Source: Trypanosoma brucei
Lineage: Eukaryota
Direction: 5' to 3'
Assembly: GCA_000002445.1 (NCBI GenBank)
Contig: CP000067.1
Location: forward strand, 1,088,001 to 1,152,000
DNA length: 64,000 nt
Below are positions 33,235 through 51,536 of the stretch, in pieces (the stretch's first letter is position 1; each line of letters opens with the position of its first letter). The notes below the pieces were generated by a model. That model was not told the DNA's origin. It saw only the letters and a program-made list of their open reading frames with translations, and made no database searches. The translations under genes were made by a program, and so were the position numbers.

Positions 33235-33257
33235 ATATATATATATATATATATATT
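33235..33257. repeat. (AT)n microsatellite
   Basis: Read directly. Confidence 0.9.
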
Positions 33258-33611
33258 CATTTATATATTCCATTAGGGACTACTCCCTTCCTCTTCCTCC
33301 TCCTTCCCACACACTCCACATATGTGAATCACAGTAACATCCGGTTTCATGCATCCACCACCGTGTTGGAGCATGTGATATGAGAAATGATGATAATGCC
33401 GATGTACCATCAATCAAGGAAGACTTTTTTTTTTTGTTGCAGACAGGATGCGTATGTGTGTATTTGTGTCTGGGGAATGTTGAATTCCCTCCTTCGCTCA
33501 TTTGTATGCAACCAAATAATAACTCCCTTTTTGTGCTGTTGTTGTATGACGTTTTACTTGCACCCGTCGTTTTGCCGCGCCTGCCCCAACTTTCTGTCGT
33601 CCACACCTCAG

Positions 33612-33630
33612 TATACATACATACATACAT

Positions 33631-33669
<39 letters not shown>
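33612..33669. repeat. compound microsatellite (CATA)n-(CA)n-(TA)n
   Basis: Read directly: atacatacatacatacacacacacacatatatatatatatatatatatatata. Confidence 0.9.
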
Positions 33670-33673
<4 letters not shown>

Positions 33674-33805
33674 TTTGTAACGGGTGACACAAATGTGAAA
33701 TTATTTTTATTGCCGATCTACACCACTAAAATATTCTTTTCTTCCACTTCTACTCAGATTGTACTAATAATATTGACTAGTACCTAGTACTCTACTGGCG
33801 CATCA

Positions 33806-36073: not shown

Positions 36074-37478
36074 CTTTTGTCTTATTGGACGGAAACCTAT
36101 GTCGTTGTTACTGTTTTTTTCTTTTACCCTTGCCTGCCCACACTAGAACTTCTAATACTACCGGTATTTTCCCTTTCCTTTTGTTTCCTTTCTCGCTTGC
36201 AGTACTCCCCTTTGTCTGAAGAGCCCTCTTCTGTTGTTCAATGTAAGAATATCTAAAACAGAAAACCTCTAACAACAAAGTACGAAGGAATCCTTCCCTC
36301 TTTCTGTGTTTTCCGTCCTCTTTCCCCTTCTTTCGCTCGCTTACTACCCTACACTCTGCGTCCTCTACCTCTCTTCTACTTTACAATATATCAACCGGCT
36401 ACCTACCAATCCTAATATGCCACTTCCCCTGCTACCCTAGTACCTACTCAGTGTTGCTAATAATGAAGTAACTAATAATAATATGTAAATATCCCCCTAA
36501 CAACTACAACCCTCTAACAAACCAACACAACCGTCAGGCAGTTCCTTGACACCGTTAGCTCTAGGTACACACTCTACTTTCCACTGACAAAGAGTGAGAA
36601 ACTAGTGCCAACGCTAAAAGAGATGAAAAAGAAACTGCCTTGACTGTGCGTCTCCGCTGCGTACAGCTACACACAAATGTAATCAACCAAAAGAAAAAAA
36701 TGCGCTTCTCTACCTGCTAGTAAACAAGGTCCTAACAACCTACGCCGCCCACTATCACCTTAACTCACCCTAACCCTACCCGGCAATGCCCCTACAAAAA
36801 AAAAGTTCCCCTGATAGTTTCCGTTTCTCGAGAACAATATGACGTAAGAATGAACAAACAAACCTTAATTCACAACCCTTAATGCCTATTGTTTTTGCAC
36901 CACCAAGAAATGGGGGACATAAGTAGGGTAAAAAAGACAAAGACATCAAAAGTTAAGAAAAAACAACAACAACAACAGAATGGAAAATCAGAAGGTAAAG
37001 CAAAACAAACAACGGCCCTAAAAGTTGCATGACCACAAACGAACAAAAAGAAAAGACACAATTAAAACCTGCACGTATTCCTTCTGGAGCTCAATGGCAC
37101 ATGTAATCACCCCGGCAAGCAACAAACCGCGCAGAGGATTTGGCACGATACCAAGAAATGGTACAGGTACAATAAAATTAGATTTAGGGCTCACACACTT
37201 TAGTAAGCACAAACAAGCACCACGTCTTGACTACAGTTCGCGAACAATTTCGTCAAGTACGTACAAACCAACAATCACCATAGTTCTATCTTCCTCCCGC
37301 ATATTTACATTTGATGAATTTTTCTACGAAGTTTCGCCACCGTAATATGCAGAACGCCTAACTCATTCACACATATTGGAGACGTACATAATCAATGGTC
37401 TTTCTGTGCGCACATATGCGTTGAGGTTATGCTCTACACAACAAGGGTTGGCACAAAGGTCTCCCTATGTGGATAAAA

Positions 37479-38471
37479 TCATTGTCCTGCAGCGGCAGAC
37501 TTCGATCTCACACAAACACGCTGGGGAGGAATGGAGGGGCCAGTTTCTGTTAATGTGTCATCTTTCTGCTGTCGACTATGCCGAGTCTCAGTTCGAGATG
37601 CCACCCCAACATTACCTTTCGCTACCTTCGAGAAACCCGTAAATGCACCGAAGGCTGATGAGCCCCGCAACCTTGGATATGGCATTCCACTTAGCCGACG
37701 CGAGGCACCCCACAAAGATGTGGTAGTGTTACATTTCGTGGAGTGAGTAGCATGTGACCGGCAGTTTTTGATATCTTTTAACACCTCATGGGATGCCTTT
37801 ACGAAGCCACTGAAGGACGGCTTTTGCCGCACAACCTCACCATCCATCTTACTGCGCTCACTCGGGTTCTCTGTGAGTGCACCAACAGCTGTACGTTCCT
37901 CCAATTGTACTGTATTGGGAAGTGGCGGAGGCTCAACGGGGTACACATGTGTTGCCGTCTGCTGCACATCGTCACCTTTGATCTTACATTCAGGAGACAC
38001 ACCCTTCAGGTTGGTTTCCACAGCTTGTTTTCCATTGCTTACAGCCGGTTTCACTTTTCGGTCAGTGTGTTTCCTGCATACTTGTGCTGTGCGTTCCGTG
38101 GCAGACGGAAGTACATCCTCACACACATGACCTTTGCTACAGCTCACATCACTCTTTTGTTCGCACGGAGGTGTAGGTGGTTCACTGCAAAGGACTCGCG
38201 TCTGACTTCTTTCCCGCCCTTTACAGTAGTATTCCTCATGGGCCGCTAACCTTGCCATCTCTACTTCCATACCACAGCACGAGCATTCTACCAATTGTTG
38301 CCCACAGCGGCTGATGTGTTCACTACAGCCAAAACGCCTACAATAGGGGCACTTGCGAAGATTTTTGGGCAGTAAATCAGAACTTTTCCGCTTCGTAGGG
38401 TCACGCACAAGAGCACCATTGTACTTCCAGGGTGCACCACTCGTTACAGTTGTCTTGCTCTCCGTTTCCAT
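37479..38471 (-). CDS. TRAF-like zinc-finger protein (330 aa), repeat copy 1
   Basis: 1-kb ORF inside each cassette. Cys/His cluster CPYCRRFGCSEHISRCGQQLVECSCCGMEVEMARLAAHEEYYC fits a TRAF-type C2HC/C3HC pattern. The rest is Ser/Thr/Pro/Lys-rich. Confidence 0.65.
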   Translation of the reverse strand: METESKTTVTSGAPWKYNGALVRDPTKRKSSDLLPKNLRKCPYCRRFGCSEHISRCGQQLVECSCCGMEVEMARLAAHEEYYCKGRERSQTRVLCSEPPTPPCEQKSDVSCSKGHVCEDVLPSATERTAQVCRKHTDRKVKPAVSNGKQAVETNLKGVSPECKIKGDDVQQTATHVYPVEPPPLPNTVQLEERTAVGALTENPSERSKMDGEVVRQKPSFSGFVKASHEVLKDIKNCRSHATHSTKCNTTTSLWGASRRLSGMPYPRLRGSSAFGAFTGFSKVAKGNVGVASRTETRHSRQQKDDTLTETGPSIPPQRVCVRSKSAAAGQ

Positions 38472-38936
38472 GACCTACACCTAAAACAAGACAGCATAAA
38501 TAATTACAGTATTTGGGAAAGGAAGGAGAGCCATGTGTGAACCAGTCGGAAAATGTATCAACGGCAACATGACCTGCACAGAGTTACTGAAGCCACGGTG
38601 TGAGCAACAGCTAGCATTTAAGGAGGGGGAAATATAACACCTATGGGAATAAGTAACGCTTACACAATGTGAAAGGAGGGTTGCAGGAGACTACAGCCAG
38701 TGCAAATGGACACAAGAGTCCTTGCTGCCGCTTTTCATAACACAATCCAACACACAATGCAATGACTCGAGAAACCCCAACACTTCACCAGCACCTGCGG
38801 AAGCTACGGGCGTGTGTGCATGTGTGTGCACAATTTGGGGAACTCGGGCCTGACACAGACAGGATGGCAGGTAATGATAGAGTGGGAGGATTACCGCATT
38901 CCAGCAACTCTACAATGGAATAAACTTGATTCGATA

Positions 38937-38958
38937 CCTTGCATCAACAACTCAAACT
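38937..38958. repeat. 22-bp direct repeat taccttgcatcaacaactcaaa (left copy). The right copy is at 39760-39781. The pair recurs in unit 2 (43491-43512 and 44314-44335), and a single copy is present in unit 3 (48037-48058)
   Basis: Exact 22-nt match read directly. The segment between the two copies is missing from unit 3. Confidence 0.85.
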
Positions 38959-39828
38959 CTCTAAATTTTTGTGAGACGCAGATGGGAAGTGAAGGAACGT
39001 GTATTCGGTGATGATGTTAAAACTAGATAAGATTTTGTGATGCACATGTAGTTATGTTAAAAAAGAAAAAAAATATCGAGGGCTTCCTGGTGGCAAAAGT
39101 TTACCAACCCCCCATCCCCCTAAAAAAAAAAGATTTCACCGTGCAACAGATGTGAAACTGCAGTAAATATTGAGAACTTCCCGTCATTCACACTGCGCAC
39201 TATGACACCGGTTAGCTTATCTTGCTATCAGGGTCTGAAACTTTATGTGGGAGGTGGCTAACATTTAGAGCTTTCTTCACGATATTCAGAAATGACACTG
39301 ACAGAAAGCTGGTGATTACGAAAGGAGCAACGTATATTACTAGCGGTGTTCTTCAGGGGAATGTATGATCCGTGAGTATACGCCCCTGCATGTGTAAATG
39401 GATTGATTCATTTTGCGTGCTAACTCTTTTCTACTTTTCCAGAAAGTGACTTAGGTTGTGGCACCACAAAGCCGTTCCGGCGTATTAAAATTATGATGGA
39501 AAAGAAAGGAGAGGGAAATAGCCTGACTAACATTTGGGGCACCTTATCCATGGAAGGGATCCAAACGTTGTAAAAAAACAAGTCACTGCCACTGACTCAC
39601 ATTGGTATTTGCCGGATAACCTCACCGTGCTCCACGGCTGTACGTACGGTAACAAGACAAAGATTAGCACATGAAAACAAAGAAAAATTTAAGTTCTTTT
39701 AAAAAATACCCATGTTAGGAATATAACACTCTCACGACAAGAAAAAAGAAAATCTGCGGTACCTTGCATCAACAACTCAAAATCAATTTAAAAAAATATA
39801 TGTGTTCACGTTCGAATTCGTGTTCGCC

Positions 39829-40983
39829 CTACAAACAACTCATTTCCCGGAGAGGTCCCTGGCTGCCCGTTAGCGAGCGGTGCGAGATGTTCTTCTCATT
39901 GTTGAACCGCCGCCTCAACTCGTTGTAGTCACTCTCATTTACATGGTGTACCATAATGGAGCTTTTTGTCACGGCTCCCAACGTTGTACCGGCGTGCACA
40001 TCGTGAAACGAGCACTTAGGCTCGTGAACGTAGGTTATATTCGTATGATACATGGCCCTCCGCAATGTAATCCCTACCATTGCGTCTTCAACCATGACAC
40101 AGAGAGACTGGAACTCTTCGTCACGTATTGCTGTGTAGGGGACGTGGATTATTGTTCGAAGGGGCTTATACGAGACAAAACGTTCCGCGACGTCACGTCC
40201 TAGAGTATAGCACGCGCCATAAGCATAATTAAATCGGAAACCTTGCACGGTGTGCACGTCTATCGTACCCCAGTATAGCCCACGGCGAGGTAGGTTGCGT
40301 AAGTCTGCTAGATACTGAGGAACGCGTAGGAACATATCGTCATCTGCCTTCGCAATATACGGGGCATACGGAAATAAGCACACTGACATGTCAAACCACA
40401 AGAATGTCTTGCGGCTCATGCCAATCTCCGCATCAATGCCCCACTTCCCACCTTGACCCACACGCTTCCTACCTGACGGCCGGCCCTCGTTCATTGGCAA
40501 CGTTAAGATGTCACTCCATTGAGTAGCTTCCTCCACCAGTGCCTTGGTATAAGTGTAGCCATTTTCGGGATGTCGCGCAAGGATGTACAGCGGCAGCATT
40601 TCACCAGAGAAACCGTTCGCACGTACTGCAACGCCGGCGTATGTCCAGCATGCTGCCCGTTGCAGGTCGCGGCGGCGCCGTCTCACGTCCAGGTCTATGG
40701 AGGGGATGCCGATTACCACCAAGTACCGTCGCTCCTCCCATGCGCTAACGACGGGAGCTGGGACGTAAGTTAGCGACTGTTTCACCCACAGAGGGCGTTT
40801 CCAGTAGGTGCAGCGTTCGGTGATTTTTTTTCTTTCCCGGCGTCTAACTCGTTCCACATCCTCTAGGAGCGTCCTGAAAGTAACAATCGCCGCGGACACT
40901 GCCAAGAGAATAATGATAAGCCAATACCTCCGCTTGTGTGCTGTACATCTTCTAATCCGATTTCCCCGAAGCGCGGGGGCCAT
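39829..40983 (-). CDS. UDP-Gal/UDP-GlcNAc-dependent glycosyltransferase (GT31-like beta-1,3-glycosyltransferase family), repeat copy 1
   Basis: Type-II signal anchor (RRYWLIIILLAVSAAIVTF), DXD motif (IAKADDDMFL) and YWGTID motif, 384 aa. Typical of the kinetoplastid GT family. Confidence 0.85.
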   Translation of the reverse strand: MAPALRGNRIRRCTAHKRRYWLIIILLAVSAAIVTFRTLLEDVERVRRRERKKITERCTYWKRPLWVKQSLTYVPAPVVSAWEERRYLVVIGIPSIDLDVRRRRRDLQRAACWTYAGVAVRANGFSGEMLPLYILARHPENGYTYTKALVEEATQWSDILTLPMNEGRPSGRKRVGQGGKWGIDAEIGMSRKTFLWFDMSVCLFPYAPYIAKADDDMFLRVPQYLADLRNLPRRGLYWGTIDVHTVQGFRFNYAYGACYTLGRDVAERFVSYKPLRTIIHVPYTAIRDEEFQSLCVMVEDAMVGITLRRAMYHTNITYVHEPKCSFHDVHAGTTLGAVTKSSIMVHHVNESDYNELRRRFNNEKNISHRSLTGSQGPLREMSCL

Positions 40984-41220
40984 AACTACACATCAAAGGC
41001 GTTCATATTTGAGAATCCAGTGGAGTTGAGGGGGCGTAGAGACCCTACTGTCGGTGATAAGTTGACGTAAAAAGTACAGCCGCTGTGGAAGCAAACATCG
41101 TTACCCAACGAACGTACACAAAAACGGAAACGAAACGACCAAAACTGCTGGACCAACGTGTCAGAAAACAATAATCATGACATGAAAGTAAGCCCAACTC
41201 ACGGCCATGCAAGTATTCAC

Positions 41221-41290
41221 ACATACGAAAACAACAAAAATAACGTCGCCTGAAAAAAAAAACAAAACCAAACAATAGTAAGAAGTTACT
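41221..41290 (-). promoter_or_regulatory. polypyrimidine (T-rich on coding strand) tract upstream of glycosyltransferase copy 1. An identical tract sits at 45775-45840 upstream of copy 2
   Basis: The plus strand reads acgaaaacaacaaaaataacgtcgcctgaaaaaaaaaacaaaaccaaacaatag. Confidence 0.4.
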
Positions 41291-42032
41291 TCAAGATATC
41301 AACCTGAATCCGCTGCGCATGTAAGCGCTGCTAGAGAGCAAAACGTAATAAAGAAAAAAAAAACGTGCCACAAAATAGCAAAAGGTGAATTTATTACTCG
41401 CTAGATATGGGGGGAAAAAGCGAGCGACTGTCGTAGCCATTCTTTTAATTCAGCCCTGGTACACGTCCATTTACTTAACAGGGGAGAGGCATCGCCTCAT
41501 CGTCGAAAATACCCACAAAACGGAGGTTTAAGAACTCTAGATGGATAAAAGCTCGATCCACAGTGGCTGTGTGGTAAGTGGCATGGCACGCTATTCAACC
41601 CAATAATAAGGTAAAAATTAACAAACAAAAGGTTCTGAGCAAAGCATACACTGCATACAACCACCCCGGCAAGCAACAAACCGCGCAGAGGATTTGGCAC
41701 GATACCAAGAAATGGTACAGGTACAATAAAATTAGATTTAGGGCTCACACACTTTAGTAAGCACAAACAAGCACCACGTCTTGACTACAGTTCGCGAACA
41801 ATTTCGTCAAGTACGTACAAACCAACAATCACCATAGTTCTATCTTCCTCCCGCATATTTACATTTGATGAATTTTTCTACGAAGTTTCGCCACCGTAAT
41901 ATGCAGAACGCCTAACTCATTCACACATATTGGAGACGTACATAATTAATGGTCCTTCTGTGCGCACATATGCGTTGAGGTTATGCTCTACACAACAAGG
42001 GTTGGCACAAAGGTCTCCCCACGTGGATAAAA

Positions 42033-43025
42033 TCATTGTCCTGCAGCGGCAGACTTCGATCTCACACAAACACGCTGGGGAGGAATGGAGGGGCCAGTTT
42101 CTGTTAATGTGTCATCTTTCTGCTGTCGACTATGCCGAGTCTCAGTTCGAGATGCCACCCCAACATTACCTTTCGCTACCTTCGAGAAACCCGTAAATGC
42201 ACCGAAGGCTGATGAGCCCCGCAACCTTGGATATGGCATTCCACTTAGCCGACGCGAGGCACCCCACAAAGATGTGGTAGTGTTACATTTCGTGGAGTGA
42301 GTAGCATGTGACCGGCAGTTTTTGATATCTTTTAACACCTCATGGGATGCCTTTACGAAGCCACTGAAGGACGGCTTTTGCCGCACAACCTCACCATCCA
42401 TCTTACTGCGCTCACTCGGGTTCTCTGTGAGTGCACCAACAGCTGTACGTTCCTCCAATTGTACTGTATTGGGAAGTGGCGGAGGCTCAACGGGGTACAC
42501 ATGTGTTGCCGTCTGCTGCACATCGTCACCTTTGATCTTACATTCAGGAGACACACCCTTCAGGTTGGTTTCCACAGCTTGTTTTCCATTGCTTACAGCC
42601 GGTTTCACTTTTCGGTCAGTGTGTTTCCTGCATACTTGTGCTGTGCGTTCCGTGGCAGACGGAAGTACATCCTCACACACATGACCTTTGCTACAGCTCA
42701 CATCACTCTTTTGTTCGCACGGAGGTGTAGGTGGTTCACTGCAAAGGACTCGCGTCTGACTTCTTTCCCGCCCTTTACAGTAGTATTCCTCATGGGCCGC
42801 TAACCTTGCCATCTCTACTTCCATACCACAGCACGAGCATTCTACCAATTGTTGCCCACAGCGGCTGATGTGTTCACTACAGCCAAAACGCCTACAATAG
42901 GGGCACTTGCGAAGATTTTTGGGCAGTAAATCAGAACTTTTCCGCTTCGTAGGGTCACGCACAAGAGCACCATTGTACTTCCAGGGTGCACCACTCGTTA
43001 CAGTTGTCTTGCTCTCCGTTTCCAT
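42033..43025 (-). CDS. TRAF-like zinc-finger protein (330 aa), repeat copy 2
   Basis: Identical to copy 1. Confidence 0.65.
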   Translation of the reverse strand: METESKTTVTSGAPWKYNGALVRDPTKRKSSDLLPKNLRKCPYCRRFGCSEHISRCGQQLVECSCCGMEVEMARLAAHEEYYCKGRERSQTRVLCSEPPTPPCEQKSDVSCSKGHVCEDVLPSATERTAQVCRKHTDRKVKPAVSNGKQAVETNLKGVSPECKIKGDDVQQTATHVYPVEPPPLPNTVQLEERTAVGALTENPSERSKMDGEVVRQKPSFSGFVKASHEVLKDIKNCRSHATHSTKCNTTTSLWGASRRLSGMPYPRLRGSSAFGAFTGFSKVAKGNVGVASRTETRHSRQQKDDTLTETGPSIPPQRVCVRSKSAAAGQ

Positions 43026-44382
43026 GACCTACACCTAAAACAAGACAGCATAAATAATTACAGTATTTGGGAAAGGAAGGAGAGCCATGTGTGAACCAGT
43101 CGGAAAATGTATCAACGGCAACATGACCTGCACAGAGTTACTGAAGCCACGGTGTGAGCAACAGCTAGCATTTAAGGAGGGGGAAATATAACACCTATGG
43201 GAATAAGTAACGCTTACACAATGTGAAAGGAGGGTTGCAGGAGACTACAGCCAGTGCAAATGGACACAAGAGTCCTTGCTGCCGCTTTTCATAACACAAT
43301 CCAACACACAATGCAATGACTCGAGAAACCCCAACACTTCACCAGCACCTGCGGAAGCTACGGGCGTGTGTGCATGTGTGTGCACAATTTGGGGAACTCG
43401 GGCCTGACACAGACAGGATGGCAGGTAATGATAGAGTGGGAGGATTACCGCATTCCAGCAACTCTACAATGGAATAAACTTGATTCGATACCTTGCATCA
43501 ACAACTCAAACTCTCTAAATTTTTGTGAGACGCAGATGGGAAGTGAAGGAACGTGTATTCGGTGATGATGTTAAAACTAGATAAGATTTTGTGATGCACA
43601 TGTAGTTATGTTAAAAAAGAAAAAAAATATCGAGGGCTTCCTGGTGGCAAAAGTTTACCAACCCCCCATCCCCCTAAAAAAAAAAGATTTCACCGTGCAA
43701 CAGATGTGAAACTGCAGTAAATATTGAGAACTTCCCGTCATTCACACTGCGCACTATGACACCGGTTAGCTTATCTTGCTATCAGGGTCTGAAACTTTAT
43801 GTGGGAGGTGGCTAACATTTAGAGCTTTCTTCACGATATTCAGAAATGACACTGACAGAAAGCTGGTGATTACGAAAGGAGCAACGTATATTACTAGCGG
43901 TGTTCTTCAGGGGAATGTATGATCCGTGAGTATACGCCCCTGCATGTGTAAATGGATTGATTCATTTTGCGTGCTAACTCTTTTCTACTTTTCCAGAAAG
44001 TGACTTAGGTTGTGGCACCACAAAGCCGTTCCGGCGTATTAAAATTATGATGGAAAAGAAAGGAGAGGGAAATAGCCTGACTAACATTTGGGGCACCTTA
44101 TCCATGGAAGGGATCCAAACGTTGTAAAAAAACAAGTCACTGCCACTGACTCACATTGGTATTTGCCGGATAACCTCACCGTGCTCCACGGCTGTACGTA
44201 CGGTAACAAGACAAAGATTAGCACATGAAAACAAAGAAAAATTTAAGTTCTTTTAAAAAATACCCATGTTAGGAATATAACACTCTCACGACAAGAAAAA
44301 AGAAAATCTGCGGTACCTTGCATCAACAACTCAAAATCAATTTAAAAAAATATATGTGTTCACGTTCGAATTCGTGTTCGCC

Positions 44383-45537
44383 CTACAAACAACTCATTTC
44401 CCGGAGAGGTCCCTGGCTGCCCGTTAGCGAGCGGTGCGAGATGTTCTTCTCATTGTTGAACCGCCGCCTCAACTCGTTGTAGTCACTCTCATTTACATGG
44501 TGTACCATAATGGAGCTTTTTGTCACGGCTCCCAACGTTGTACCGGCGTGCACATCGTGAAACGAGCACTTAGGCTCGTGAACGTAGGTTATATTCGTAT
44601 GATACATGGCCCTCCGCAATGTAATCCCTACCATTGCGTCTTCAACCATGACACAGAGAGACTGGAACTCTTCGTCACGTATTGCTGTGTAGGGGACGTG
44701 GATTATTGTTCGAAGGGGCTTATACGAGACAAAACGTTCCGCGACGTCACGTCCTAGAGTATAGCACGCGCCATAAGCATAATTAAATCGGAAACCTTGC
44801 ACGGTGTGCACGTCTATCGTACCCCAGTATAGCCCACGGCGAGGTAGGTTGCGTAAGTCTGCTAGATACTGAGGAACGCGTAGGAACATATCGTCATCTG
44901 CCTTCGCAATATACGGGGCATACGGAAATAAGCACACTGACATGTCAAACCACAAGAATGTCTTGCGGCTCATGCCAATCTCCGCATCAATGCCCCACTT
45001 CCCACCTTGACCCACACGCTTCCTACCTGACGGCCGGCCCTCGTTCATTGGCAACGTTAAGATGTCACTCCATTGAGTAGCTTCCTCCACCAGTGCCTTG
45101 GTATAAGTGTAGCCATTTTCGGGATGTCGCGCAAGGATGTACAGCGGCAGCATTTCACCAGAGAAACCGTTCGCACGTACTGCAACGCCGGCGTATGTCC
45201 AGCATGCTGCCCGTTGCAGGTCGCGGCGGCGCCGTCTCACGTCCAGGTCTATGGAGGGGATGCCGATTACCACCAAGTACCGTCGCTCCTCCCATGCGCT
45301 AACGACGGGAGCTGGGACGTAAGTTAGCGACTGTTTCACCCACAGAGGGCGTTTCCAGTAGGTGCAGCGTTCGGTGATTTTTTTTCTTTCCCGGCGTCTA
45401 ACTCGTTCCACATCCTCTAGGAGCGTCCTGAAAGTAACAATCGCCGCGGACACTGCCAAGAGAATAATGATAAGCCAATACCTCCGCTTGTGTGCTGTAC
45501 ATCTTCCAATCCGATTTCCCCGAAGCGCGGGGGCCAT
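44383..45537 (-). CDS. UDP-Gal/UDP-GlcNAc-dependent glycosyltransferase, repeat copy 2
   Basis: Differs from copy 1 by one residue (R11G). Confidence 0.85.
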   Translation of the reverse strand: MAPALRGNRIGRCTAHKRRYWLIIILLAVSAAIVTFRTLLEDVERVRRRERKKITERCTYWKRPLWVKQSLTYVPAPVVSAWEERRYLVVIGIPSIDLDVRRRRRDLQRAACWTYAGVAVRANGFSGEMLPLYILARHPENGYTYTKALVEEATQWSDILTLPMNEGRPSGRKRVGQGGKWGIDAEIGMSRKTFLWFDMSVCLFPYAPYIAKADDDMFLRVPQYLADLRNLPRRGLYWGTIDVHTVQGFRFNYAYGACYTLGRDVAERFVSYKPLRTIIHVPYTAIRDEEFQSLCVMVEDAMVGITLRRAMYHTNITYVHEPKCSFHDVHAGTTLGAVTKSSIMVHHVNESDYNELRRRFNNEKNISHRSLTGSQGPLREMSCL

Positions 45538-46212
45538 AACTACACATCAAAGGCGTTCATATTTGAGAATCCAGTGGAGTTGAGGGGGCGTAGAGACCCT
45601 ACTGTCGGTGATAAGTTGACGTAAAAAGTACAGCCGCTGTGGAAGCAAACATCGTTACCCAACGAACGTACACAAAAACGGAAACGAAACGACCAAAACT
45701 GCTGGACCAACGTGTCAGAAAACAATAATCATGACATGAAAGTAAGCCCAACTCACGGCCATGCAAGTATTCACACATACGAAAACAACAAAAATAACGT
45801 CGCCTGAAAAAAAAAAAAACCAAACAATAGTAAGAAGTTACTTCAAGATATCAACCTGAATCCGCTGCGCATGTAAGCGCTGCTAGAGAGCAAAACGTAA
45901 TAAAGAAAAAAAAACGTGCCACAAAATAGCAAAAGGTGAATTTATTACTCGCTAGATATGGGGGGAAAAAGCGAGCGACTGTCGTAGCCATTCTTTTAAT
46001 TCAGCCCTGGTACACGTCCATTTACTTAACAGGGGAGAGGCATCGCCTCATCGTCGAAAATACCCACAAAACGGAGGTTTAAGAACTCTAGATGGATAAA
46101 AGCTCGATCCACAGTGGCTGTGTGGTAAGTGGCATGACACGCTATTCAACCCAATAATAAGGTAAAAATTAACAAACAAAAGGTTCTGAGCAAAGCATAC
46201 ACTGCATACAAC

Positions 46213-49078
46213 CACCCCGGCAAGCAACAAACCGCGCAGAGGATTTGGCACGATACCAAGAAATGGTACAGGTACAATAAAATTAGATTTAGGGCTCACA
46301 CACTTTAGTAAGCACAAACAAGCACCACGTCTTGACTACAGTTCGCGAACAATTTCGTCAAGTACGTACAAACCAACAATCACCATAGTTCTATCTTCCT
46401 CCCGCATATTTACATTTGATGAATTTTTCTACGAAGTTTCGCCACCGTAATATGCAGAACGCCTAACTCATTCACACATATTGGAGACGTACATAATCAA
46501 TGGTCTTTCTGTGCGCACATATGCGTTGAGGTTATGCTCTACACAACAAGGGTTGGCACAAAGGTCTCCCCATGTGGATAAAATCATTGTCCTGCAGCGG
46601 CAGACTTCGATCTCACACAAACACGCTGGGGAGGAATGGAGGGGCCAGTTTCTGTTAATGTGTCATCTTTCTGCTGTCGACTATGCCGAGTCTCAGTTCG
46701 AGATGCCACCCCAACATTACCTTTCGCTACCTTCGAGAAACCCGTAAATGCACCGAAGGCTGATGAGCCCCGCAACCTTGGATATGGCATTCCACTTAGC
46801 CGACGCGAGGCACCCCACAAAGATGTGGTAGTGTTACATTTCGTGGAGTGAGTAGCATGTGACCGGCAGTTTTTGATATCTCTTAACACCTCATGGGATG
46901 CCTTTACGAAGCCACTGAAGGACGGCTTTTGCCGCACAACCTCACCATCCATCTTACTGCGCTCACTCGGGTTCTCTGTGAGTGCACCAACAGCTGTACG
47001 TTCCTCCAATTGTACTGTATTGGGAAGTGGCGGAGGCTCAACGGGGTACACATGTGTTGCCGTCTGCTGCACATCGTCACCTTTGATCTTACATTCAGGA
47101 GACACACCCTTCAGGTTGGTTTCCACAGCTTGTTTTCCATTGCTTACAGCCGGTTTCACTTTTCGGTCAGTGTGTTTCCTGCATACTTGTGCTGTGCGTT
47201 CCGTGGCAGACGGAAGTACATCCTCACACACATGACCTTTGCTACAGCTCACATCACTCTTTTGTTCGCACGGAGGTGTAGGTGGTTCACTGCAAAGGAC
47301 TCGCGTCTGACTTCTTTCCCGCCCTTTACAGTAGTATTCCTCATGGGCCGCTAACCTTGCCATCTCTACTTCCATACCACAGCACGAGCATTCTACCAAT
47401 TGTTGCCCACAGCGGCTGATGTGTTCACTACAGCCAAAACGCCTACAATAGGGGCACTTGCGAAGATTTTTGGGCAGTAAATCAGAACTTTTCCGCTTCG
47501 TAGGGTCACGCACAAGAGCACCATTGTACTTCCAGGGTGCACCACTCGTTACAGTTGTCTTGCTCTCCGTTTCCATGACCTACACCTAAAACAAGACAGC
47601 ATAAATAATTACAGTATTTGGGAAAGGAAGGAGAGCCATGTGTGAACCAGTCGGAAAATGTATCAACGGCAACATGACCTGCACAGAGTTACTGAAGCCA
47701 CGGTGTGAGCAACAGCTAGCATTTAAGGAGGGGGAAATATAACACCTATGGGAATAAGTAACGCTTACACAATGTGAAAGGAGGGTTGCAGGAGACTACA
47801 GCCAGTGCAAATGGACACAAGAGTCCTTGCTGCCGCTTTTCATAACACAATCCAACACACAATGCAATGACTCGAGAAACCCCAACACTTCACCAGCACC
47901 TGCGGAAGCTACAGGCGTGTGTGCATGTGTGTGCACAATTTGGGGAACTCGGGCCTGACACAGACAGGATGGCAGGTAATGATAGAGTGGGAGGATTACC
48001 GCATTCCAGCAACTCTACAATGGAATAAACTTGATTCGATACCTTGCATCAACAACTCAAAATCAATTTAAAAAAATATATGTGTTCACGTTCGAATTCG
48101 TGTTCGCCCTACAAACAACTCATTTCCCGGAGAGGTCCCTGGCTGCCCGTTAGCGAGCGGTGCGAGGTGTTCTTCTCATTGTTGAACCGCCGCCTCAACT
48201 CGTTGTAGTCACTCTCATTTACATGGTGTACCATAATGGAGCTTTTTGTCACGGCTCCCAACGTTGTACCGGCGTGCACATCGTGAAACGAGCACTTAGG
48301 CTCGTGAACGTAGGTTATATTCGTATGATACATGGCCCTCCGCAATGTAATCCCTACCATTGCGTCTTCAACCATGACACAGAGAGACTGGAACTCTTCG
48401 TCACGTATTGCTGTGTAGGGGACGTGGATTATTGTTCGAAGGGGCTTATACGAGACAAAACGTTCCGCGACGTCACGTCCTAGAGTATAGCACGCGCCAT
48501 AAGCATAATTAAATCGGAAACCTTGCACGCTGAGCACGTCTATCGTACCCCAGTATAGCCCACGGCGAGGTAGGTTGCGTAAGTCTGCTAGATACTGAGG
48601 AACGCGTAGGAACATATCGTCATCTGCCTTCGCAATATACGGGGCATACGGAAATAAGCACACTGACATGTCAAACCACAAGAATGTCTTGCGGCTCATG
48701 CCAATCTCCGCATCAATGCCCCACTTCCCACCTTGACCCACACGCTTCCTACCTGACGGCCGGCCCTCGTTCATTGGCAACGTTAAGATGTCACTCCATT
48801 GAGTAGCTTCCTCCACCAGTGCCTTGGTATAAGTGTAGCCATTTTCGGGATGTCGCGCAAGGATGTACAGCGGCAGCATTTCACCAGAGAAACCGTTCGC
48901 ACGTACTGCAACGCCGGCGTATGTCCAGCATGCTGCCCGTTGCAGGTCGCGGCGGCGCCGTCTCACGTCCAGGTCTATGGAGGGGATGCCGATTACCACC
49001 AAGTACCGTCGCTCCTCCCATGCGCTAACGACGGGAGCTGGGACGTAAGTTAGCGACTGTTTCACCCACAGAGGGTGC
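46213..49078. repeat. repeat unit 3 (truncated, carries internal 823-bp deletion)
   Basis: See array. The glycosyltransferase start-to-start spacing is 3726 bp instead of 4554 bp. Confidence 0.9.
46584..47576 (-). CDS. TRAF-like zinc-finger protein (330 aa), repeat copy 3
   Basis: One conservative K to R difference from copies 1 and 2. Confidence 0.65.
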   Translation of the reverse strand: METESKTTVTSGAPWKYNGALVRDPTKRKSSDLLPKNLRKCPYCRRFGCSEHISRCGQQLVECSCCGMEVEMARLAAHEEYYCKGRERSQTRVLCSEPPTPPCEQKSDVSCSKGHVCEDVLPSATERTAQVCRKHTDRKVKPAVSNGKQAVETNLKGVSPECKIKGDDVQQTATHVYPVEPPPLPNTVQLEERTAVGALTENPSERSKMDGEVVRQKPSFSGFVKASHEVLRDIKNCRSHATHSTKCNTTTSLWGASRRLSGMPYPRLRGSSAFGAFTGFSKVAKGNVGVASRTETRHSRQQKDDTLTETGPSIPPQRVCVRSKSAAAGQ

Positions 49079-49266
49079 TCTGAGAGATGTTGACCTTTAT
49101 TGGCTATAGCTGTTTTCGGAACGTTGATTTCCCTTTTGCCGGCTCTCTCTGAGTTGTTGGAGAGCGTTGTCAAGAGAGATGTGACAACGCATATGGTAAA
49201 GAGCAATACCGTCAAAGAAATGCTGCTGCGCAGTATTCTTCCGCGACTGTTAAATTGCCTACACAT
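48109..49266 (-). CDS. UDP-Gal/UDP-GlcNAc-dependent glycosyltransferase, array-edge copy with divergent N-terminal 64 residues
   Basis: Catalytic region identical to copies 1 and 2 from PLWVKQSL onward, with 2-3 substitutions (HT to LS, I to T). The N-terminal cytoplasmic tail, TM and stem are unrelated (MCRQFNSRGRILRSSISLTVLLFTICVV...). Confidence 0.85.
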   Translation of the reverse strand: MCRQFNSRGRILRSSISLTVLLFTICVVTSLLTTLSNNSERAGKREINVPKTAIANKGQHLSEHPLWVKQSLTYVPAPVVSAWEERRYLVVIGIPSIDLDVRRRRRDLQRAACWTYAGVAVRANGFSGEMLPLYILARHPENGYTYTKALVEEATQWSDILTLPMNEGRPSGRKRVGQGGKWGIDAEIGMSRKTFLWFDMSVCLFPYAPYIAKADDDMFLRVPQYLADLRNLPRRGLYWGTIDVLSVQGFRFNYAYGACYTLGRDVAERFVSYKPLRTIIHVPYTAIRDEEFQSLCVMVEDAMVGITLRRAMYHTNITYVHEPKCSFHDVHAGTTLGAVTKSSIMVHHVNESDYNELRRRFNNEKNTSHRSLTGSQGPLREMSCL

Positions 49267-49685: not shown

Positions 49686-51536
49686 TCAGCGTTGAGTTCT
49701 CAGAACTGCATCGGCAGCGTCACCTGCTCTACGACGTAGCGGAAGGAACCCAAAGCGATAAAGCGTGTACGATACAGAGTAGCAGCGTGGGTAGAGCTGT
49801 GTCAGTTCATCACCTTCTTCAATGCGACTATTTGCACGAACTACTGCACACACCGCCTCCTTGCACATTCCGGCAGTATTGGCGACCTTGTTACTATCAT
49901 TTGAGAGTGAAATCTTCTCTATACTGCAGCTTGTATTTGACATACCTCCTGGTGGGTGCTGAAGCATATCTACTATGGGAACGATTGTCGCTATTGTATG
50001 GGGCTGAAAATCATTCACGCCGACACGGTTACGGTCGACAACCCTGAAAATGTTGTCCATGACGCCCATATGCATTTTTGTTATCAGACGTGTCCATAGA
50101 TGTAGTTTCTGAAGCACTTTTTCTTCGCTGCAAATGTCCTCGAAATGCTCAGTATGTCGTCGGAGGGGAAGAAGTCGCTGACGTGATAAAACAACACGTA
50201 GCGCCCACGTCAGATCATCCATTGATGGTGGCGGGAGCCGACCAGGAGTGGTGCACTGCGTTTTCCCTTCTTCGATGGGAGATCTCGCATTCACCACATC
50301 GTTGCCATCATTCGGTGATACGGAGCCGTCGACAGAGGAGACCTCTCCCGCACCAGAGCAAACAGCACTCTCATACTCCTGTTGCCATCTGTTACGGATT
50401 TGACGAAGGTAATGAGAGAATCTGCCACAGTGGTCAGTGTATTCAAGATGTGTCGCTGGGTCAAGCACCCCAAGGTGCAACTCCCGTATGAAGTCGTCGT
50501 CGAACGGAGAGAGAAGCCGCAAGTAAGAAAACAGGGGACTTTTGGCTCCCTCCGCACGCTCGCAGGCCAGAAGCAGGGCGAAATGTACCTGGTCGACGAA
50601 AAGTGGATGTGGAAGTGGATCGAACGAAGACTTTCGTTGACCAACAATCGCTTCCACACTTTGATACGAAGGAACACCGCGGCGTTGCGCCGCCACCGAG
50701 TGCCGTTGGAGATTCTCTGAATTGATCGTCAAACTCCAGGGCGTAAGGTTACCCTCGGAGGCAACTGAGGGTGCCGGTGAAGATGGCACAAACTCATCCG
50801 CGCTATCTGCCCCCAAAGCACCATAGAGAGGCACTGCGAATATCATGTCACCTTTGTGGAACGGTTTGCGTGCGACTAAGCCACGAGAATACTGCGATCG
50901 CAGATGAAAGTCAACGTTGTCCGTGAGCATGTTCCACAGCACTGTTTGCGAGCTCTTTATCAGCTCCTCACGAAACCATGCAAGAAAGTCCTGCACATGG
51001 TCCTCGGGCACCGTTCCCATACTATCAGTTGATATCCAATTCTCCACCCGGATGCGTTGCCTCCCCAGCTGTGGGGAAGTGAGGCTTGAGGCCCACATGG
51101 GGAGAGGCGCCTTCGGCGAATTGTTGGGAACCTCGTACACAGACAATGCGTCCGGAGGATGTCGTTCACTTGGGTCACTAAGGAACGAGAATTTTGGTTT
51201 ACGATACACTGCTGGCGGCAGCTCTTCCTCTGCCAACGGTGCTACCGCCGCTAGTGTTGCAATTCGCGGCGCGAACATTTCCTTCTTCCTTATAGTAGAT
51301 TGTACCTCCTCCGCCTGAAGGGAGGAGCCTGCTTGAGGTTCCACGCTTTCCAACGCAACGCGCAGCTGTTCATTCATTTCAACTTGCTGCCGCGCAGCAA
51401 TACCACAATTTGCGGGGTCACGTTCTTCATACGATACAAGCCTCTTTGAGGCATACCACACATCTCGTCTGAGTGGCACAAACGAAGAAGTTGCCACTCG
51501 TCTCCACATTGATAGAAGCGCATCCCTCTTCCTCAT
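49686..51536 (-). CDS. SET domain-containing protein (putative protein lysine methyltransferase, LSMT-like)
   Basis: SRGLVARKPFHKGDMIFAVPLYG, IVPIVDMLQHPPGG and a C-terminal YTLYRFGFLP are arranged like Rubisco-LSMT-type SET domains. Moderate confidence. Confidence 0.6.
   Translation of the reverse strand: MRKRDALLSMWRRVATSSFVPLRRDVWYASKRLVSYEERDPANCGIAARQQVEMNEQLRVALESVEPQAGSSLQAEEVQSTIRKKEMFAPRIATLAAVAPLAEEELPPAVYRKPKFSFLSDPSERHPPDALSVYEVPNNSPKAPLPMWASSLTSPQLGRQRIRVENWISTDSMGTVPEDHVQDFLAWFREELIKSSQTVLWNMLTDNVDFHLRSQYSRGLVARKPFHKGDMIFAVPLYGALGADSADEFVPSSPAPSVASEGNLTPWSLTINSENLQRHSVAAQRRGVPSYQSVEAIVGQRKSSFDPLPHPLFVDQVHFALLLACERAEGAKSPLFSYLRLLSPFDDDFIRELHLGVLDPATHLEYTDHCGRFSHYLRQIRNRWQQEYESAVCSGAGEVSSVDGSVSPNDGNDVVNARSPIEEGKTQCTTPGRLPPPSMDDLTWALRVVLSRQRLLPLRRHTEHFEDICSEEKVLQKLHLWTRLITKMHMGVMDNIFRVVDRNRVGVNDFQPHTIATIVPIVDMLQHPPGGMSNTSCSIEKISLSNDSNKVANTAGMCKEAVCAVVRANSRIEEGDELTQLYPRCYSVSYTLYRFGFLPLRRRAGDAADAVLRTQR

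What the first reader, a model, noticed from the sequence alone, without database searches (positions are those of the whole stretch)
37108..49078. Co-amplified two-gene cassette: GT31-like glycosyltransferase plus a TRAF-like zinc-finger protein, in a near-identical 2.6-unit tandem array
Self-comparison shows a 4554/4551-bp period with only a handful of SNPs per unit. Seen in sequence: 37470 ctccctatgtgg versus 42024 ctccccacgtgg versus 46575 ctccccatgtgg; R11G in glycosyltransferase copy 2; K to R in zinc-finger copy 3. Each unit carries two co-oriented genes. One is a type-II-anchored DXD glycosyltransferase of the kinetoplastid UDP-Gal/UDP-GlcNAc-dependent family. The other is a 330-aa ORF with a TRAF-type Cys/His zinc-binding cluster and no signal peptide. 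Kinetoplastids commonly use tandem gene amplification to raise expression, since they lack gene-specific promoters. Here two unrelated genes are amplified as one unit, which suggests they are needed together. A zinc-finger partner of a Golgi glycosyltransferase is not an established pairing. Array identity this high also means the assembly could have collapsed or expanded the true copy number.
Basis: partly seen in the sequence, partly recalled or inferred. Interest (0 to 1): 0.7.

Follow-up and report, generated by a model that had tools for sequence, protein, structure and literature searches.

The report
Known trypanosome glycosyltransferase/zinc-finger gene array
This is the already annotated Tb927.4.4240-4290 locus on Trypanosoma brucei chromosome 4: a glycosyltransferase gene was tandemly amplified along with the small zinc-finger gene that has long been its neighbour, and the evidence says the two travel together because of where they sit, not because they work together.

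Summary
The repeat is real: window 37105-49075, periods 4554/4551 bp, with units 1 and 2 differing by 7 substitutions. All genes are on the minus strand. The third unit is not just truncated. It lacks an 825-bp segment, and its glycosyltransferase (GT) keeps a different, ancestral N-terminus.

The window is T. b. brucei TREU927 chr4:1,088,001-1,152,000. The genes are Tb927.4.4240/4260/4280 (zinc finger, ZnF) and Tb927.4.4250/4270/4290 (GT67 family). They are already annotated and were analysed in the chr4/chr8 duplicon paper.

The 330-aa ORF is a genuine gene:
- It has mapped spliced-leader and poly(A) sites and a ribosome-profiling entry.
- Its TRAF/CEP104-like C2HC finger domain is conserved across the genus Trypanosoma and under purifying selection.
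- TrypTag localises it to the posterior cell tip, not the Golgi.

It occupies the same syntenic slot in T. cruzi and one T. vivax locus with no GT beside it. GTs are amplified without it in T. melophagium and T. grayi. The "needed together" reading is therefore not supported; co-duplication by position, with concerted evolution, explains the cassette. Independent read sets contain the inter-unit junction, so a multi-unit array is not an assembly artefact. Exact copy number is untested and appears to vary between strains.

Verdict: ordinary, already known.

The parts
37105..49075 (-). Whole tandem array: two full units plus a structurally distinct first unit (first in transcription order)
   Evidence: Self-BLAST; three-way alignment
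37105..41658 (-). Unit 1 (4554 bp; last in transcription order): J + GT1 + 825-bp segment + ZnF1
41659..46209 (-). Unit 2 (4551 bp): J + GT2 + 825-bp segment + ZnF2
   Evidence: 7 substitutions and 3 gap columns versus unit 1
46210..49075 (-). Unit 3 (first in transcription order): the 3' 83% of GT3, a short intergenic region and ZnF3. It lacks J and the 825-bp segment. This is the form found as a single copy in T. b. gambiense DAL972 and T. b. equiperdum
37479..38471 (-). ZnF1 = Tb927.4.4240, 330 aa. Two C2HC fingers at residues 41-83, then a disordered tail
   Evidence: Exact match to AAZ11015. ORF coordinates 1126471-1125479 and mapped transcript 1126510-1124997 in Kolev 2010 Table S3. Translation efficiency 0.88/1.13. 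TrypTag 'Posterior tip'
42033..43025 (-). ZnF2 = Tb927.4.4260, identical protein to ZnF1
   Evidence: Predominant splice-acceptor site at 1131034 = window 43034, 9-nt 5'UTR
46584..47576 (-). ZnF3 = Tb927.4.4280 (K232R)
   Evidence: Predominant splice-acceptor site at 1135585 = window 47585
39829..40983 (-). GT1 = Tb927.4.4250, 384 aa GT67 glycosyltransferase with a novel N-terminal tail/TM/stem
   Evidence: PF01762 at 27.7 bits against a cutoff of 23. TM at 22-40, YIAKADDD at 209-216, EDAMVG at 299-304. Splice-acceptor site at window 40985
44383..45537 (-). GT2 = Tb927.4.4270, 384 aa (R11G)
   Evidence: Mapped transcript 1133601-1132152 = window 45601-44152
48109..49266 (-). GT3 = Tb927.4.4290, 385 aa. 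Ancestral N-terminus; its catalytic part differs from GT1 at H244L, T245S and I366T
   Evidence: Its N-terminus aligns with the chr-8 paralogue (37% over 49 aa, E 9.5e-5). Splice-acceptor site at window 49283
40796..41658 (-). Junction segment J, copy 1. Carries the GT1 start codon, the first 63 codons and the 5' splice signals. Found only between units
   Evidence: Seen elsewhere only in Logan contigs L003 and L011-L014
45350..46209 (-). Junction segment J, copy 2
38957..39781 (-). 825-bp segment, unit 1. Absent from unit 3 and from the single-copy strains. Bounded by 22-25-nt direct repeats TTTGAGTTGTTGATGCAAGGTA at 39757-39781 and 38932-38956
43511..44335 (-). 825-bp segment, unit 2. Contains the GT2 poly(A) site (44152) and the splice-acceptor sites of 'new transcripts' Tb4.NT.43 (44003) and Tb4.NT.42 (43514). 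No ORF longer than 53 aa
33806..36073 (-). Downstream flank: Tb927.4.4230, RRM protein. A conserved syntenic neighbour of the ZnF gene in every Trypanosoma locus with enough flanking sequence
49686..51536 (-). Upstream flank: Tb927.4.4300, 616-aa protein. Directly precedes the ZnF gene in T. cruzi and in T. vivax locus L005

Best explanation
The window is T. b. brucei TREU927 chr4:1,088,001-1,152,000, and the feature is the annotated locus Tb927.4.4240-4290. A lineage-1 GT67 glycosyltransferase gene lies immediately upstream of an ancestral, Trypanosoma-wide zinc-finger gene, within one minus-strand polycistronic unit.

Mechanism (inferred). Unequal crossing-over between GT copies duplicated everything lying between them, so the ZnF gene was copied as a passenger. 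Ongoing gene conversion or unequal exchange then keeps the copies nearly identical. The homogenised tract runs from about codon 64 of the GT to 374 nt past the ZnF stop codon.

Shown. Each gene is processed into its own trans-spliced, polyadenylated mRNA.

Inferred. Amplification raises the dosage of the GT, which is upregulated in bloodstream forms, and incidentally raises ZnF dosage too.

The array encodes two GT isoforms. Their catalytic domains are virtually identical, but the cytoplasmic tail/TM/stem differs (ancestral in GT3; novel and junction-encoded in GT1/2), and so does the 3'UTR (825-bp indel).

The ZnF protein has a pair of TRAF/CEP104-type C2HC fingers and a disordered basic tail. 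It localises to the posterior tip of the cortical cytoskeleton. Its most likely role is as a protein-interaction adaptor there, unrelated to Golgi glycosylation (inferred).
For: Identity and coordinates:
- Exact protein matches to AAZ11015-AAZ11020 on the 1,590,432-bp TREU927 chr4.
- A constant offset of 1,088,000 to the published ORF coordinates of three genes.

Already known:
- A GT67 review describes lineage 1 as TbGT4 (three copies) plus TbGT16 (two copies), with higher expression in bloodstream forms.
- Ribosome profiling also shows these GTs are higher in bloodstream forms.

The ZnF ORF is a real gene:
- Eight homologue clusters found by exhaustive HMMER; the named ones are all Trypanosoma species.
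- Cys/His residues are invariant.
- In the finger domain pN is 0.25-0.39 against pS 0.70-0.98.
- Splice-acceptor sites lie 9 nt upstream of ZnF2 and ZnF3, and both transcript ends of ZnF1 are mapped.
- RNA-seq read counts are comparable to those of the GTs.
- It appears in the ribosome-profiling translation-efficiency table.
- The tagged protein localises to the posterior tip.

Position rather than function:
- p616-ZnF-RRM with no GT in T. cruzi and in T. vivax locus L005.
- GT-only tandem runs next to a single ZnF gene in T. melophagium.
- GT-only tandem runs in T. grayi and between the two ZnF genes on chr 8.
- TrypTag reports that transcription units do not group proteins by localisation.

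Concerted evolution:
- Divergence is 0.15% within the array, against 0.7-0.9% between strains over the same sequence.
- Yet the inter-unit junction J is present in those other strains.

No hidden RNA genes in the unit.
Against: - GT-ZnF adjacency recurs on chr 4, on chr 8, in T. congolense and in T. melophagium. ZnF-family ORFs stay intact in every repeat, so selection for joint dosage cannot be excluded.
- The origin of J and of the 825-bp segment is unexplained. A simple duplication of a GT3-ZnF ancestor does not generate them.
- The TrypTag localisation comes from procyclic forms, whereas the GTs are mainly expressed in bloodstream forms.
- The localisation and activity of these particular GTs have not been determined.
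Confidence: 0.85

Rival explanations
1. Functional co-amplification: the zinc-finger protein and the glycosyltransferase act together, for example as a cytosolic adaptor recognising the GT tail. Selection therefore maintains them as one dosage unit.
For: ZnF-family genes are interleaved with GT copies on both T. brucei duplicons and in T. congolense. ZnF and GT mRNA read counts are similar. TRAF/CEP104-type fingers are protein-interaction modules.
Against: The ZnF gene persists in the same slot without a GT in T. cruzi and in T. vivax locus L005. GTs are amplified without it in T. melophagium, T. grayi and inside the chr-8 array. The protein localises to the posterior cytoskeletal tip, not the Golgi. 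GT1/2 and GT3 have unrelated cytoplasmic tails, which is hard to reconcile with a tail-specific partner.
Confidence: 0.06
2. The amplification is driven by selection for ZnF dosage, and the GT is the passenger.
For: All three ZnF copies are intact and expressed, with pooled RNA-seq counts slightly above those of the GTs. The homogenised tract covers the entire ZnF gene but only part of the GT.
Against: GT67 genes expand repeatedly and independently across trypanosomatids, including arrays with no ZnF gene. The ZnF gene is single-copy in T. cruzi, T. vivax, T. melophagium, T. b. gambiense and T. b. equiperdum. In T. brucei and T. congolense the ZnF protein is truncated and its tail is almost unconstrained.
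Confidence: 0.05
3. Assembly artefact: the reference mis-assembled a single GT-ZnF pair into three.
For: The DAL972 and T. b. equiperdum assemblies show one pair with no gaps. Identity between units is very high.
Against: Segment J, which joins a ZnF 3' region to a GT with a distinct N-terminus, can exist only if at least two units are present. It is found at about 99% identity (21-24 differences) in contigs from two independent non-TREU927 read sets, ERR034315 and ERR7929157-162. Units carry private SNPs. The unit-specific J and the 825-bp segment are not what a spurious expansion of one GT3-ZnF pair would generate.
Confidence: 0.03
4. The 330-aa ORF is non-coding GT 3'UTR sequence.
For: No Pfam hit for the T. 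brucei protein. The word-indexed search found only its own cluster. The C-terminal 230 aa are poorly conserved.
Against: The protein has homologues, all from Trypanosoma where named, with invariant Cys/His. It has its own splice-acceptor and poly(A) sites, a ribosome-profiling entry and omega 0.26. The tagged protein has a specific localisation.
Confidence: 0.01

Closest known systems
The paralogous array on T. brucei chromosome 8 (Tb927.8.8070-8110; TbGT16 sub-family)
   Same: It derives from the same ancestral locus through the chr4/chr8 duplication. GT67 lineage-1 genes are interleaved with ZnF-family genes, next to the spectrin-repeat paralogue.
   Different: On chr 8 the ZnF genes are long forms (550/636 aa) with a degenerate finger 1 and a retained finger 4. 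They are only 37% identical to the chr-4 protein, over 84 aa. The order there is ZnF-GT-GT-GT(partial)-ZnF rather than strict alternation.
T. brucei tandem gene arrays evolving in concert (Jackson 2007, PMC1855330)
   Same: Near-identical copies in one polycistronic unit, homogenised by unequal crossing-over or gene conversion. Structural disruption at the array ends allows divergent terminal copies.
   Different: That paper's GT arrays are other loci: array 30 at chr4:1.425 Mb with 7 copies, and array 77 on chr 8. Here the repeat unit holds two unrelated genes and comes in two structural types.
Leishmania major chromosome 2 SCGR/SCA array
   Same: A GT67-family array interleaved with a second gene type, at a locus flanked by a Rab-like GTPase gene.
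   Different: In Leishmania both interleaved genes are glycosyltransferases (galactosyl- and arabinosyl-). Here the second gene encodes a cytoskeleton-tip zinc-finger protein.
TRAF-type and CEP104-type tandem C2HC zinc-finger arrays (TRAF6 3HCS, CEP104 5LPI, TRAFD1/FLN29 2D9K)
   Same: Tandem beta-beta-alpha C2HC fingers with H-x3-C-x6-C-x2-C linkage. The four-finger T. cruzi model matches TRAF6 (E 1.1e-5) and CEP104 (E 3.5e-4, 119 of 123 columns aligned). There are sub-threshold Pfam hits to CEP104_ZnF, zf-TRAF and TRAFD1-XIAF1_ZnF.
   Different: No Pfam hit to RING, TRAF-C/MATH or TOG domains. All Pfam scores fall below the curated cutoffs. The T. brucei chr-4 protein keeps only fingers 1-2. 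TM-scores are low, about 0.3.
Characterised T. brucei GT67 enzymes (TbGT3, TbGT8, TbGT10, TbGT11/GnTI, TbGT15/GnTII)
   Same: Type-II topology and the three GT67 motifs. About 38% identity to TbGnTI.
   Different: The donor, acceptor and linkage of the chr-4 enzymes are unknown. Their proposed role as beta1-4 Gal-transferases is only postulated.

Membership tests
CAZy GT67 (kinetoplastid UDP-Gal/UDP-GlcNAc-dependent glycosyltransferases) | Motif Y(I,V,F)XKXDDD (the DXD region), as given by Duncan & Ferguson 2022 | tested here: met
   YIAKADDD at residues 209-216 of GT1. Motif definition.
CAZy GT67 (kinetoplastid UDP-Gal/UDP-GlcNAc-dependent glycosyltransferases) | Motif ED(A/V/I/L/M)(M/L)X(G/A), plus a WG motif | tested here: met
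   EDAMVG at 299-304; WG at 181 and 238. Motif definition.
CAZy GT67 (kinetoplastid UDP-Gal/UDP-GlcNAc-dependent glycosyltransferases) | Type-II membrane topology: a short cytoplasmic tail and a single N-terminal TM | tested here: met
   Kyte-Doolittle maximum 2.47 at residues 22-40 (GT1) and 2.15 at 16-34 (GT3), preceded by basic tails.
CAZy GT67 (kinetoplastid UDP-Gal/UDP-GlcNAc-dependent glycosyltransferases) | Sequence homology to family members and to the beta3GT Pfam model | tested here: met
   PF01762 at 27.7 bits against a cutoff of 23. 58 homologues with E<=1e-20, almost all annotated as this family.
CAZy GT67 (kinetoplastid UDP-Gal/UDP-GlcNAc-dependent glycosyltransferases) | Inverting beta-glycosyltransferase activity and Golgi residence | not testable with these tools
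   Shown for TbGT11 and TbGT15 only. These genes are uncharacterised.
TRAF protein family | zf-TRAF domain scoring above the Pfam gathering threshold | tested here: not met
   No hit for the T. brucei protein. Homologues score 13-22 bits against a cutoff of 27.
TRAF protein family | N-terminal RING and C-terminal TRAF-C/MATH domain | tested here: not met
   No such Pfam hits in any family member. The remainder is predicted disordered.
TRAF-type / CEP104-type C2HC finger fold (structural class only) | Tandem beta-beta-alpha fingers with C-x2-C...H-x3-4-C ligands, matching solved TRAF or CEP104 arrays | tested here: met
   Invariant C41, C44, H52, C56, C63, C66, H78, C83. AF2 pLDDT 85-95 over residues 11-66 of the 111-residue modelled segment (about protein residues 35-90). 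Foldseek hits to TRAF6 (1.1e-5) and CEP104 (3.5e-4) for the four-finger form. Hits for the two-finger form are weak, E about 1e-2.
CEP104 orthologue | PF21039 above threshold, together with jelly-roll and TOG domains | tested here: not met
   PF21039 scores 18-26 bits against a cutoff of 27.4, and only in the long homologues. No TOG or jelly-roll hits.
Tandem array under concerted evolution | Copies within a genome are more alike than orthologous copies between strains, although the duplication predates the strain split | tested here: met
   0.15% divergence within the array against 0.7-0.9% between strains. Junction J is present in the other strains.

The most novel reading that the evidence does not exclude
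The Trypanosoma-specific C2HC zinc-finger protein is a genuine cytosolic partner of lineage-1 GT67 enzymes, for example sorting or anchoring them through protein-protein contacts near the posterior or endocytic region. On this reading its repeated co-duplication with GTs on chr 4, on chr 8 and in T. congolense reflects selection for balanced dosage.

A weaker and more probable variant (about 0.25) concerns the GTs alone. The junction-encoded N-terminus and the alternative 3'UTR of GT1/2 would give the same catalytic domain a different sub-compartment or stage profile from GT3.
Probability: 0.05. Interest if true: 0.55.

Novelty: already known. Interest (0 to 1): 0.15.

Why it matters
The locus matters mainly as a worked example. 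In trypanosomes, co-amplification of neighbouring genes cannot be read as evidence of functional coupling, because gene order in polycistronic units is largely historical.

Two details may be useful to specialists:
- The TbGT4-type array encodes two isoforms that share a catalytic domain but differ in tail/TM/stem and in 3'UTR.
- The interleaved "hypothetical protein" belongs to a TRAF/CEP104-like zinc-finger family, found here only in the genus Trypanosoma, that localises to the microtubule-plus-end-rich posterior tip.

Neither point changes current understanding of glycosylation.

Tried and rejected
- Jackson's array 30. I first took "array 30" of Jackson 2007 (BMC Evol Biol) to be this locus. 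Its coordinates (chr4:1,425,330-1,436,840, 7 copies) show it is a different GT array, so I dropped the citation.
- Word-indexed protein searches. The single-sequence search with the ZnF ORF found only its own cluster. The profile search added only four family members. The family was revealed by exhaustive HMMER.
- Hidden RNA genes as a driver of the repeat. Rfam (E<=0.1) and ARAGORN found none.
- Origin of J and of the 825-bp segment. No similarity to either array flank, the chr-8 locus, T. congolense or any other fetched locus. The GT1 N-terminal 64 aa match no other fetched GT. Both remain unexplained.
- EB1-binding SxIP motif as an explanation for posterior-tip localisation. Absent from the T. 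brucei protein and not conserved in position among homologues.
- omega by the Nei-Gojobori method. dS is saturated for most species pairs, so only pN/pS is reported. The published omega of 0.26 was used instead.
- Orthology of the slot GTs across species, by NJ tree. The T. brucei chr4 + chr8 + T. congolense clade is clear, but the backbone is unresolved. Whether GT-ZnF adjacency is ancestral or arose repeatedly is undecided.
- T. vivax gave two conflicting loci, L005 without a GT and L015 with a GT after the p623 homologue. They share only 60-67% amino-acid identity and are not alleles.

Full report
OBSERVATION.

A self-BLAST of the window and the repeat finder confirm a large direct repeat:
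- 37105-43510 matches 41659-48061 at 99.77% (12 mismatches and 2 gaps in 6406 nt).
- 39757-40795, 44311-45349 and 48037-49075 match at 99.6%.
- Tandem Repeats Finder could not see it, because its period limit is 500 bp.

The array therefore spans 37105-49075, with units of 4554 and 4551 bp.

Units 1 and 2 differ by 7 substitutions and 3 indel columns. R11G in GT copy 2 and K232R in ZnF copy 3 are confirmed. The quoted SNP strings are present but 9 nt from the stated positions.

All six ORFs, and every other long ORF in the window bar two that overlap minus-strand genes, lie on the minus strand. The region is thus one polycistronic unit.

ANATOMY: THE UNITS ARE NOT EQUIVALENT.

A three-way alignment in transcription orientation shows two structural types.

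The first unit (GT3-ZnF3, 49075 down to 46210) has these features:
- A 532-nt GT-ZnF spacer.
- Homology to the other units begins only at about GT codon 64.
- GT3 (385 aa) therefore has its own N-terminal tail/TM/stem.

The two downstream units differ from it in two ways:
- They carry an 860-863-bp junction segment J (45350-46209 and 40796-41658). J supplies a different start codon, the first 63 codons and the polypyrimidine/AG signals for GT2 and GT1.
- They carry an extra 825-bp segment (43511-44335 and 38957-39781). It starts 48 nt after the GT stop codon and is bounded by a 22-25-nt direct repeat.

Neither J nor the 825-bp segment resembles the array flanks or any other locus I fetched. 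A simple duplication of a GT3-ZnF ancestor therefore does not explain them, and their origin is unresolved.

The GT3 N-terminus is the ancestral one. It aligns with the chr-8 paralogue (37% over 49 aa, E 9.5e-5), whereas the GT1 N-terminus matches nothing. The catalytic parts differ at only three residues.

IDENTITY OF THE LOCUS.

All six proteins match T. b. brucei TREU927 entries AAZ11015-AAZ11020 exactly, on the 1,590,432-bp chromosome 4.

Published v4 coordinates differ from window coordinates by a constant 1,088,000 for three genes:
- Tb927.4.4240: 1126471-1125479
- Tb927.4.4270: 1133537-1132383
- Tb927.4.4230: 1124073-1121806

The window is therefore chr4:1,088,001-1,152,000, and the genes map as follows:
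- Tb927.4.4240/4260/4280: annotated "hypothetical protein, conserved" (the ZnF genes).

WHAT IS ALREADY PUBLISHED.

[quoted passage not shown] It lists Tb927.4.4240/Tb927.8.8070 as a retained pair described as "Zinc finger, C2H2-type". For that pair, SLAC omega is 0.26, FEL finds 13 negatively selected sites, and neither SLAC nor FEL finds a positively selected site.
- Silva Pereira & Jackson 2018 cite ribosome profiling showing Tb927.4.4250/4270/4290 and Tb927.8.8090/8100 are higher in bloodstream forms, with function uncharacterised.
- Duncan & Ferguson 2022 describe lineage 1 of GT67 as TbGT4 (three copies) plus TbGT16 (two copies). It derives from a single T. vivax-type gene and is postulated to encode beta1-4 Gal-transferases. 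Equating TbGT4 with this array is my inference from the copy numbers and from my tree.
- I initially misattributed Jackson's "array 30" to this locus. Its coordinates show it is a different, 7-copy array at 1.425 Mb.

THE GLYCOSYLTRANSFERASE.

- PF01762 scores 27.7 bits against a cutoff of 23.
- There is an N-terminal TM (residues 22-40 in GT1, 16-34 in GT3).
- The three GT67 motifs are present: WG, YIAKADDD (209-216) and EDAMVG (299-304).
- The family is CAZy GT67, derived from an ancestral beta3GT.

THE 330-AA ORF IS A REAL, INDEPENDENT GENE.

Homologues and fold:
- A word-indexed search found only its own cluster.
- Exhaustive HMMER found eight further clusters matching residues ~4-100. They come from T. 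congolense, T. vivax, T. grayi, T. cruzi marinkellei and T. melophagium. T. cruzi was added later.
- Eight Cys/His ligands are invariant.
- The long homologues have four fingers plus conserved C-terminal motifs. The T. brucei chr-4 form and the T. congolense 196-aa form keep only fingers 1-2.
- Pfam gives only sub-threshold hits, and only in long forms: CEP104_ZnF at 18-26 bits against a cutoff of 27.4, plus zf-TRAF, TRAFD1-XIAF1_ZnF and UBZ types.
- An AF2 model of the T. brucei domain is confident (pLDDT 85-95) over residues 11-66 of the 111-residue modelled segment, about protein residues 35-90. It weakly matches TRAF6, TRAF4, TRAFD1, RNF125 and CEP104.
- The four-finger T. cruzi model (pLDDT 78) matches TRAF6 (E 1.1e-5) and, over its whole length, the CEP104 finger array (E 3.5e-4).
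- "TRAF-type-like C2HC fingers" is therefore a fair structural description. The protein is not a TRAF or CEP104 family member: the other defining domains gave no hit, and scores fall below threshold.

Constraint:
- In the finger domain pN is 0.25-0.39 against a saturated pS of 0.70-0.98.
- In the tail pN is 0.57 against pS 0.79, which is nearly unconstrained.

Expression (Kolev et al. 2010 and others):
- Predominant splice-acceptor sites lie 9 nt upstream of the ZnF2 and ZnF3 start codons (window 43034 and 47585). This matches the polypyrimidine/AG site I predicted from sequence.
- A ZnF1 transcript is mapped from window 38510 to 36997.
- Pooled RNA-seq read counts are 1290 for the ZnF genes against 867 for GT1/GT2.
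- Vasquez et al. 2014 list Tb927.4.4240 in a ribosome-profiling supplementary table. I read the values there, 0.88 for bloodstream forms and 1.13 for procyclic forms, as translation efficiencies; I did not check the column headers.
- TrypTag places Tb927.4.4240 among 12 proteins of the cortical-cytoskeleton "posterior tip" sub-domain, together with EB1, XMAP215 and MAPK6.

IS THE PAIRING FUNCTIONAL OR POSITIONAL?

Gene order around the ZnF gene, by species (h = homologue):
- T. b. gambiense DAL972 and T. b. equiperdum: p616-GT(385 aa)-ZnF-RRM, single copy, no assembly gaps.
- T. cruzi (two assemblies): CFAP300-Metallophos-CutA1-p623h-p616h-ZnF-RRMh, with no GT.
- T. vivax L005: p616h-ZnF-RRM, with no GT.
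- T. melophagium: a run of at least five GT copies or fragments, then a single ZnF gene, then RRMh.
- T. congolense: GT-460aa-GT-543aa-ZnF(196 aa)-RRM. The 460- and 543-aa ORFs share only a weak N-terminal match with the ZnF family.
- T. brucei chr 8: p623 paralogue-GT fragment-ZnF(long)-GT-GT-GT(partial)-ZnF(long).
- T. grayi: three tandem GTs on a contig with no ZnF gene.

Two conclusions follow. The ZnF gene is the stable syntenic element. The GT is the mobile and expanding one, and it expands both with and without the ZnF gene.

Two further points bear on the pairing:
- The ZnF protein localises to the posterior tip.
- GT1/2 and GT3 have unrelated cytoplasmic tails.

Taken with these, co-duplication because the ZnF gene lies between recombining GT copies is the best explanation. 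TrypTag also reports that transcription units do not group proteins by localisation.

Functional coupling is not excluded, because the adjacency recurs and ZnF ORFs stay intact, but I put it at about 5%.

ARTEFACT OR REAL? CONCERTED EVOLUTION.

- Contigs assembled independently from ERR034315 (L003) and from ERR7929157/159/161/162 (L011-L014, identical to each other) span ZnF -> J -> GT(384 aa).
- These contigs are about 99% identical to the window and carry 12-24 differences. They are therefore not TREU927.
- J can exist only between units, so at least two units exist in other isolates.
- Divergence within the array (0.15%) is about five-fold lower than divergence between strains (0.7-0.9%) over the same sequence. 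This indicates ongoing homogenisation.
- The single-pair assemblies of DAL972 and T. b. equiperdum suggest copy-number polymorphism or a collapsed assembly. I could not decide between these.

OTHER CHECKS.

- No Rfam family (E<=0.1) or tRNA lies in or near the array.
- The 825-bp segment contains the mapped GT2 poly(A) site (44152). It also contains the splice-acceptor sites of two "new transcripts", Tb4.NT.43 (44003) and Tb4.NT.42 (43514). It has no ORF longer than 53 aa.
- The ZnF protein has no SxIP motif.

VERDICT.

The locus is already annotated and published. The one novel inference, a functional GT/zinc-finger partnership, is not supported by synteny or localisation.

Residual points of modest interest:
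- The two GT isoforms, with swapped tail/TM/stem and different 3'UTRs.
- The unexplained origin of J and of the 825-bp segment.
- The uncharacterised posterior-tip zinc-finger family.

Noticed in passing
window 38957-39781 and 43511-44335: An 825-bp segment is present only in units 1 and 2. It is bounded by a 22-25-nt direct repeat (TTTGAGTTGTTGATGCAAGGTA). It contains the GT2 poly(A) site and the splice-acceptor sites of two published 'new transcripts', Tb4.NT.42 and Tb4.NT.43, with no ORF longer than 53 aa. It is not resolved whether this is an insertion or a repeat-mediated deletion in unit 3.
   Followed up: partly
window 40796-41658 and 45350-46209: Junction segment J gives GT1 and GT2 a 63-codon N-terminus (tail, TM, stem) with no detectable homologue in any fetched GT. 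GT3 keeps the ancestral N-terminus. Across strains the J-encoded region shows two non-synonymous changes (R11G, S30T) and no synonymous change.
   Followed up: partly
L001 and L002 versus window 37105-49075: T. b. gambiense DAL972 and T. b. equiperdum (GCA_003543875.1) assemblies carry a single GT(385 aa)-ZnF pair of the unit-3 type, with no gaps. Two other read sets carry the multi-unit junction. This is either copy-number polymorphism or a collapsed assembly.
   Followed up: partly
L005 versus L015 (both labelled T. vivax): Two loci have overlapping gene content (EMP24, Metallophos) but only 50-67% amino-acid identity and complementary gene sets: p616h-ZnF-RRM in one, CFAP300-p623h-GT in the other. 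Either the region is also duplicated in T. vivax, with reciprocal gene loss, or one assembly is from a divergent lineage.
   Followed up: partly
window 30262-33806: An AT-rich stretch (GC 0.37-0.38) full of A-rich microsatellites coincides with the mapped 3.5-kb 3'UTR of the RRM gene Tb927.4.4230. That gene also has an ~812-845-nt 5'UTR.
   Followed up: yes
L007:4762-6414 and L007:14134-16044; L006:1201-2583 and L006:5956-7587: The chr-8 ZnF paralogues are long forms with a degenerate first finger (the His ligand is lost) and a retained fourth finger. The chr-4 and T. congolense short forms keep only fingers 1-2. This looks like complementary domain loss after duplication. The T. congolense 460- and 543-aa ORFs share only ~50-70 N-terminal residues with the family.
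   Followed up: partly
P0018 (JGI metagenome protein, 603 aa): A protein from a metagenome carries two copies of the same finger pair (CPHC...H..RC....C..CG) at its C-terminus. It is the only hit that carries no Trypanosoma annotation and comes from a metagenome. Its source organism was not identified.
   Followed up: no
L004:1-9368 (T. melophagium): At least five GT67 copies or fragments lie in tandem directly upstream of the single ZnF gene. Several look like pseudogenes, giving split or partial tblastn matches.
   Followed up: no
window 1-64000: Every long ORF that has a Pfam assignment lies on the minus strand: CLP1, CCDC39, FtsJ methyltransferase, FtsH-like AAA protease, Rab-like GTPase, RRM protein, Metallophos, CFAP300 and monoglyceride lipase. 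This is a single polycistronic unit of ordinary core genes, with no other large repeat.
   Followed up: yes
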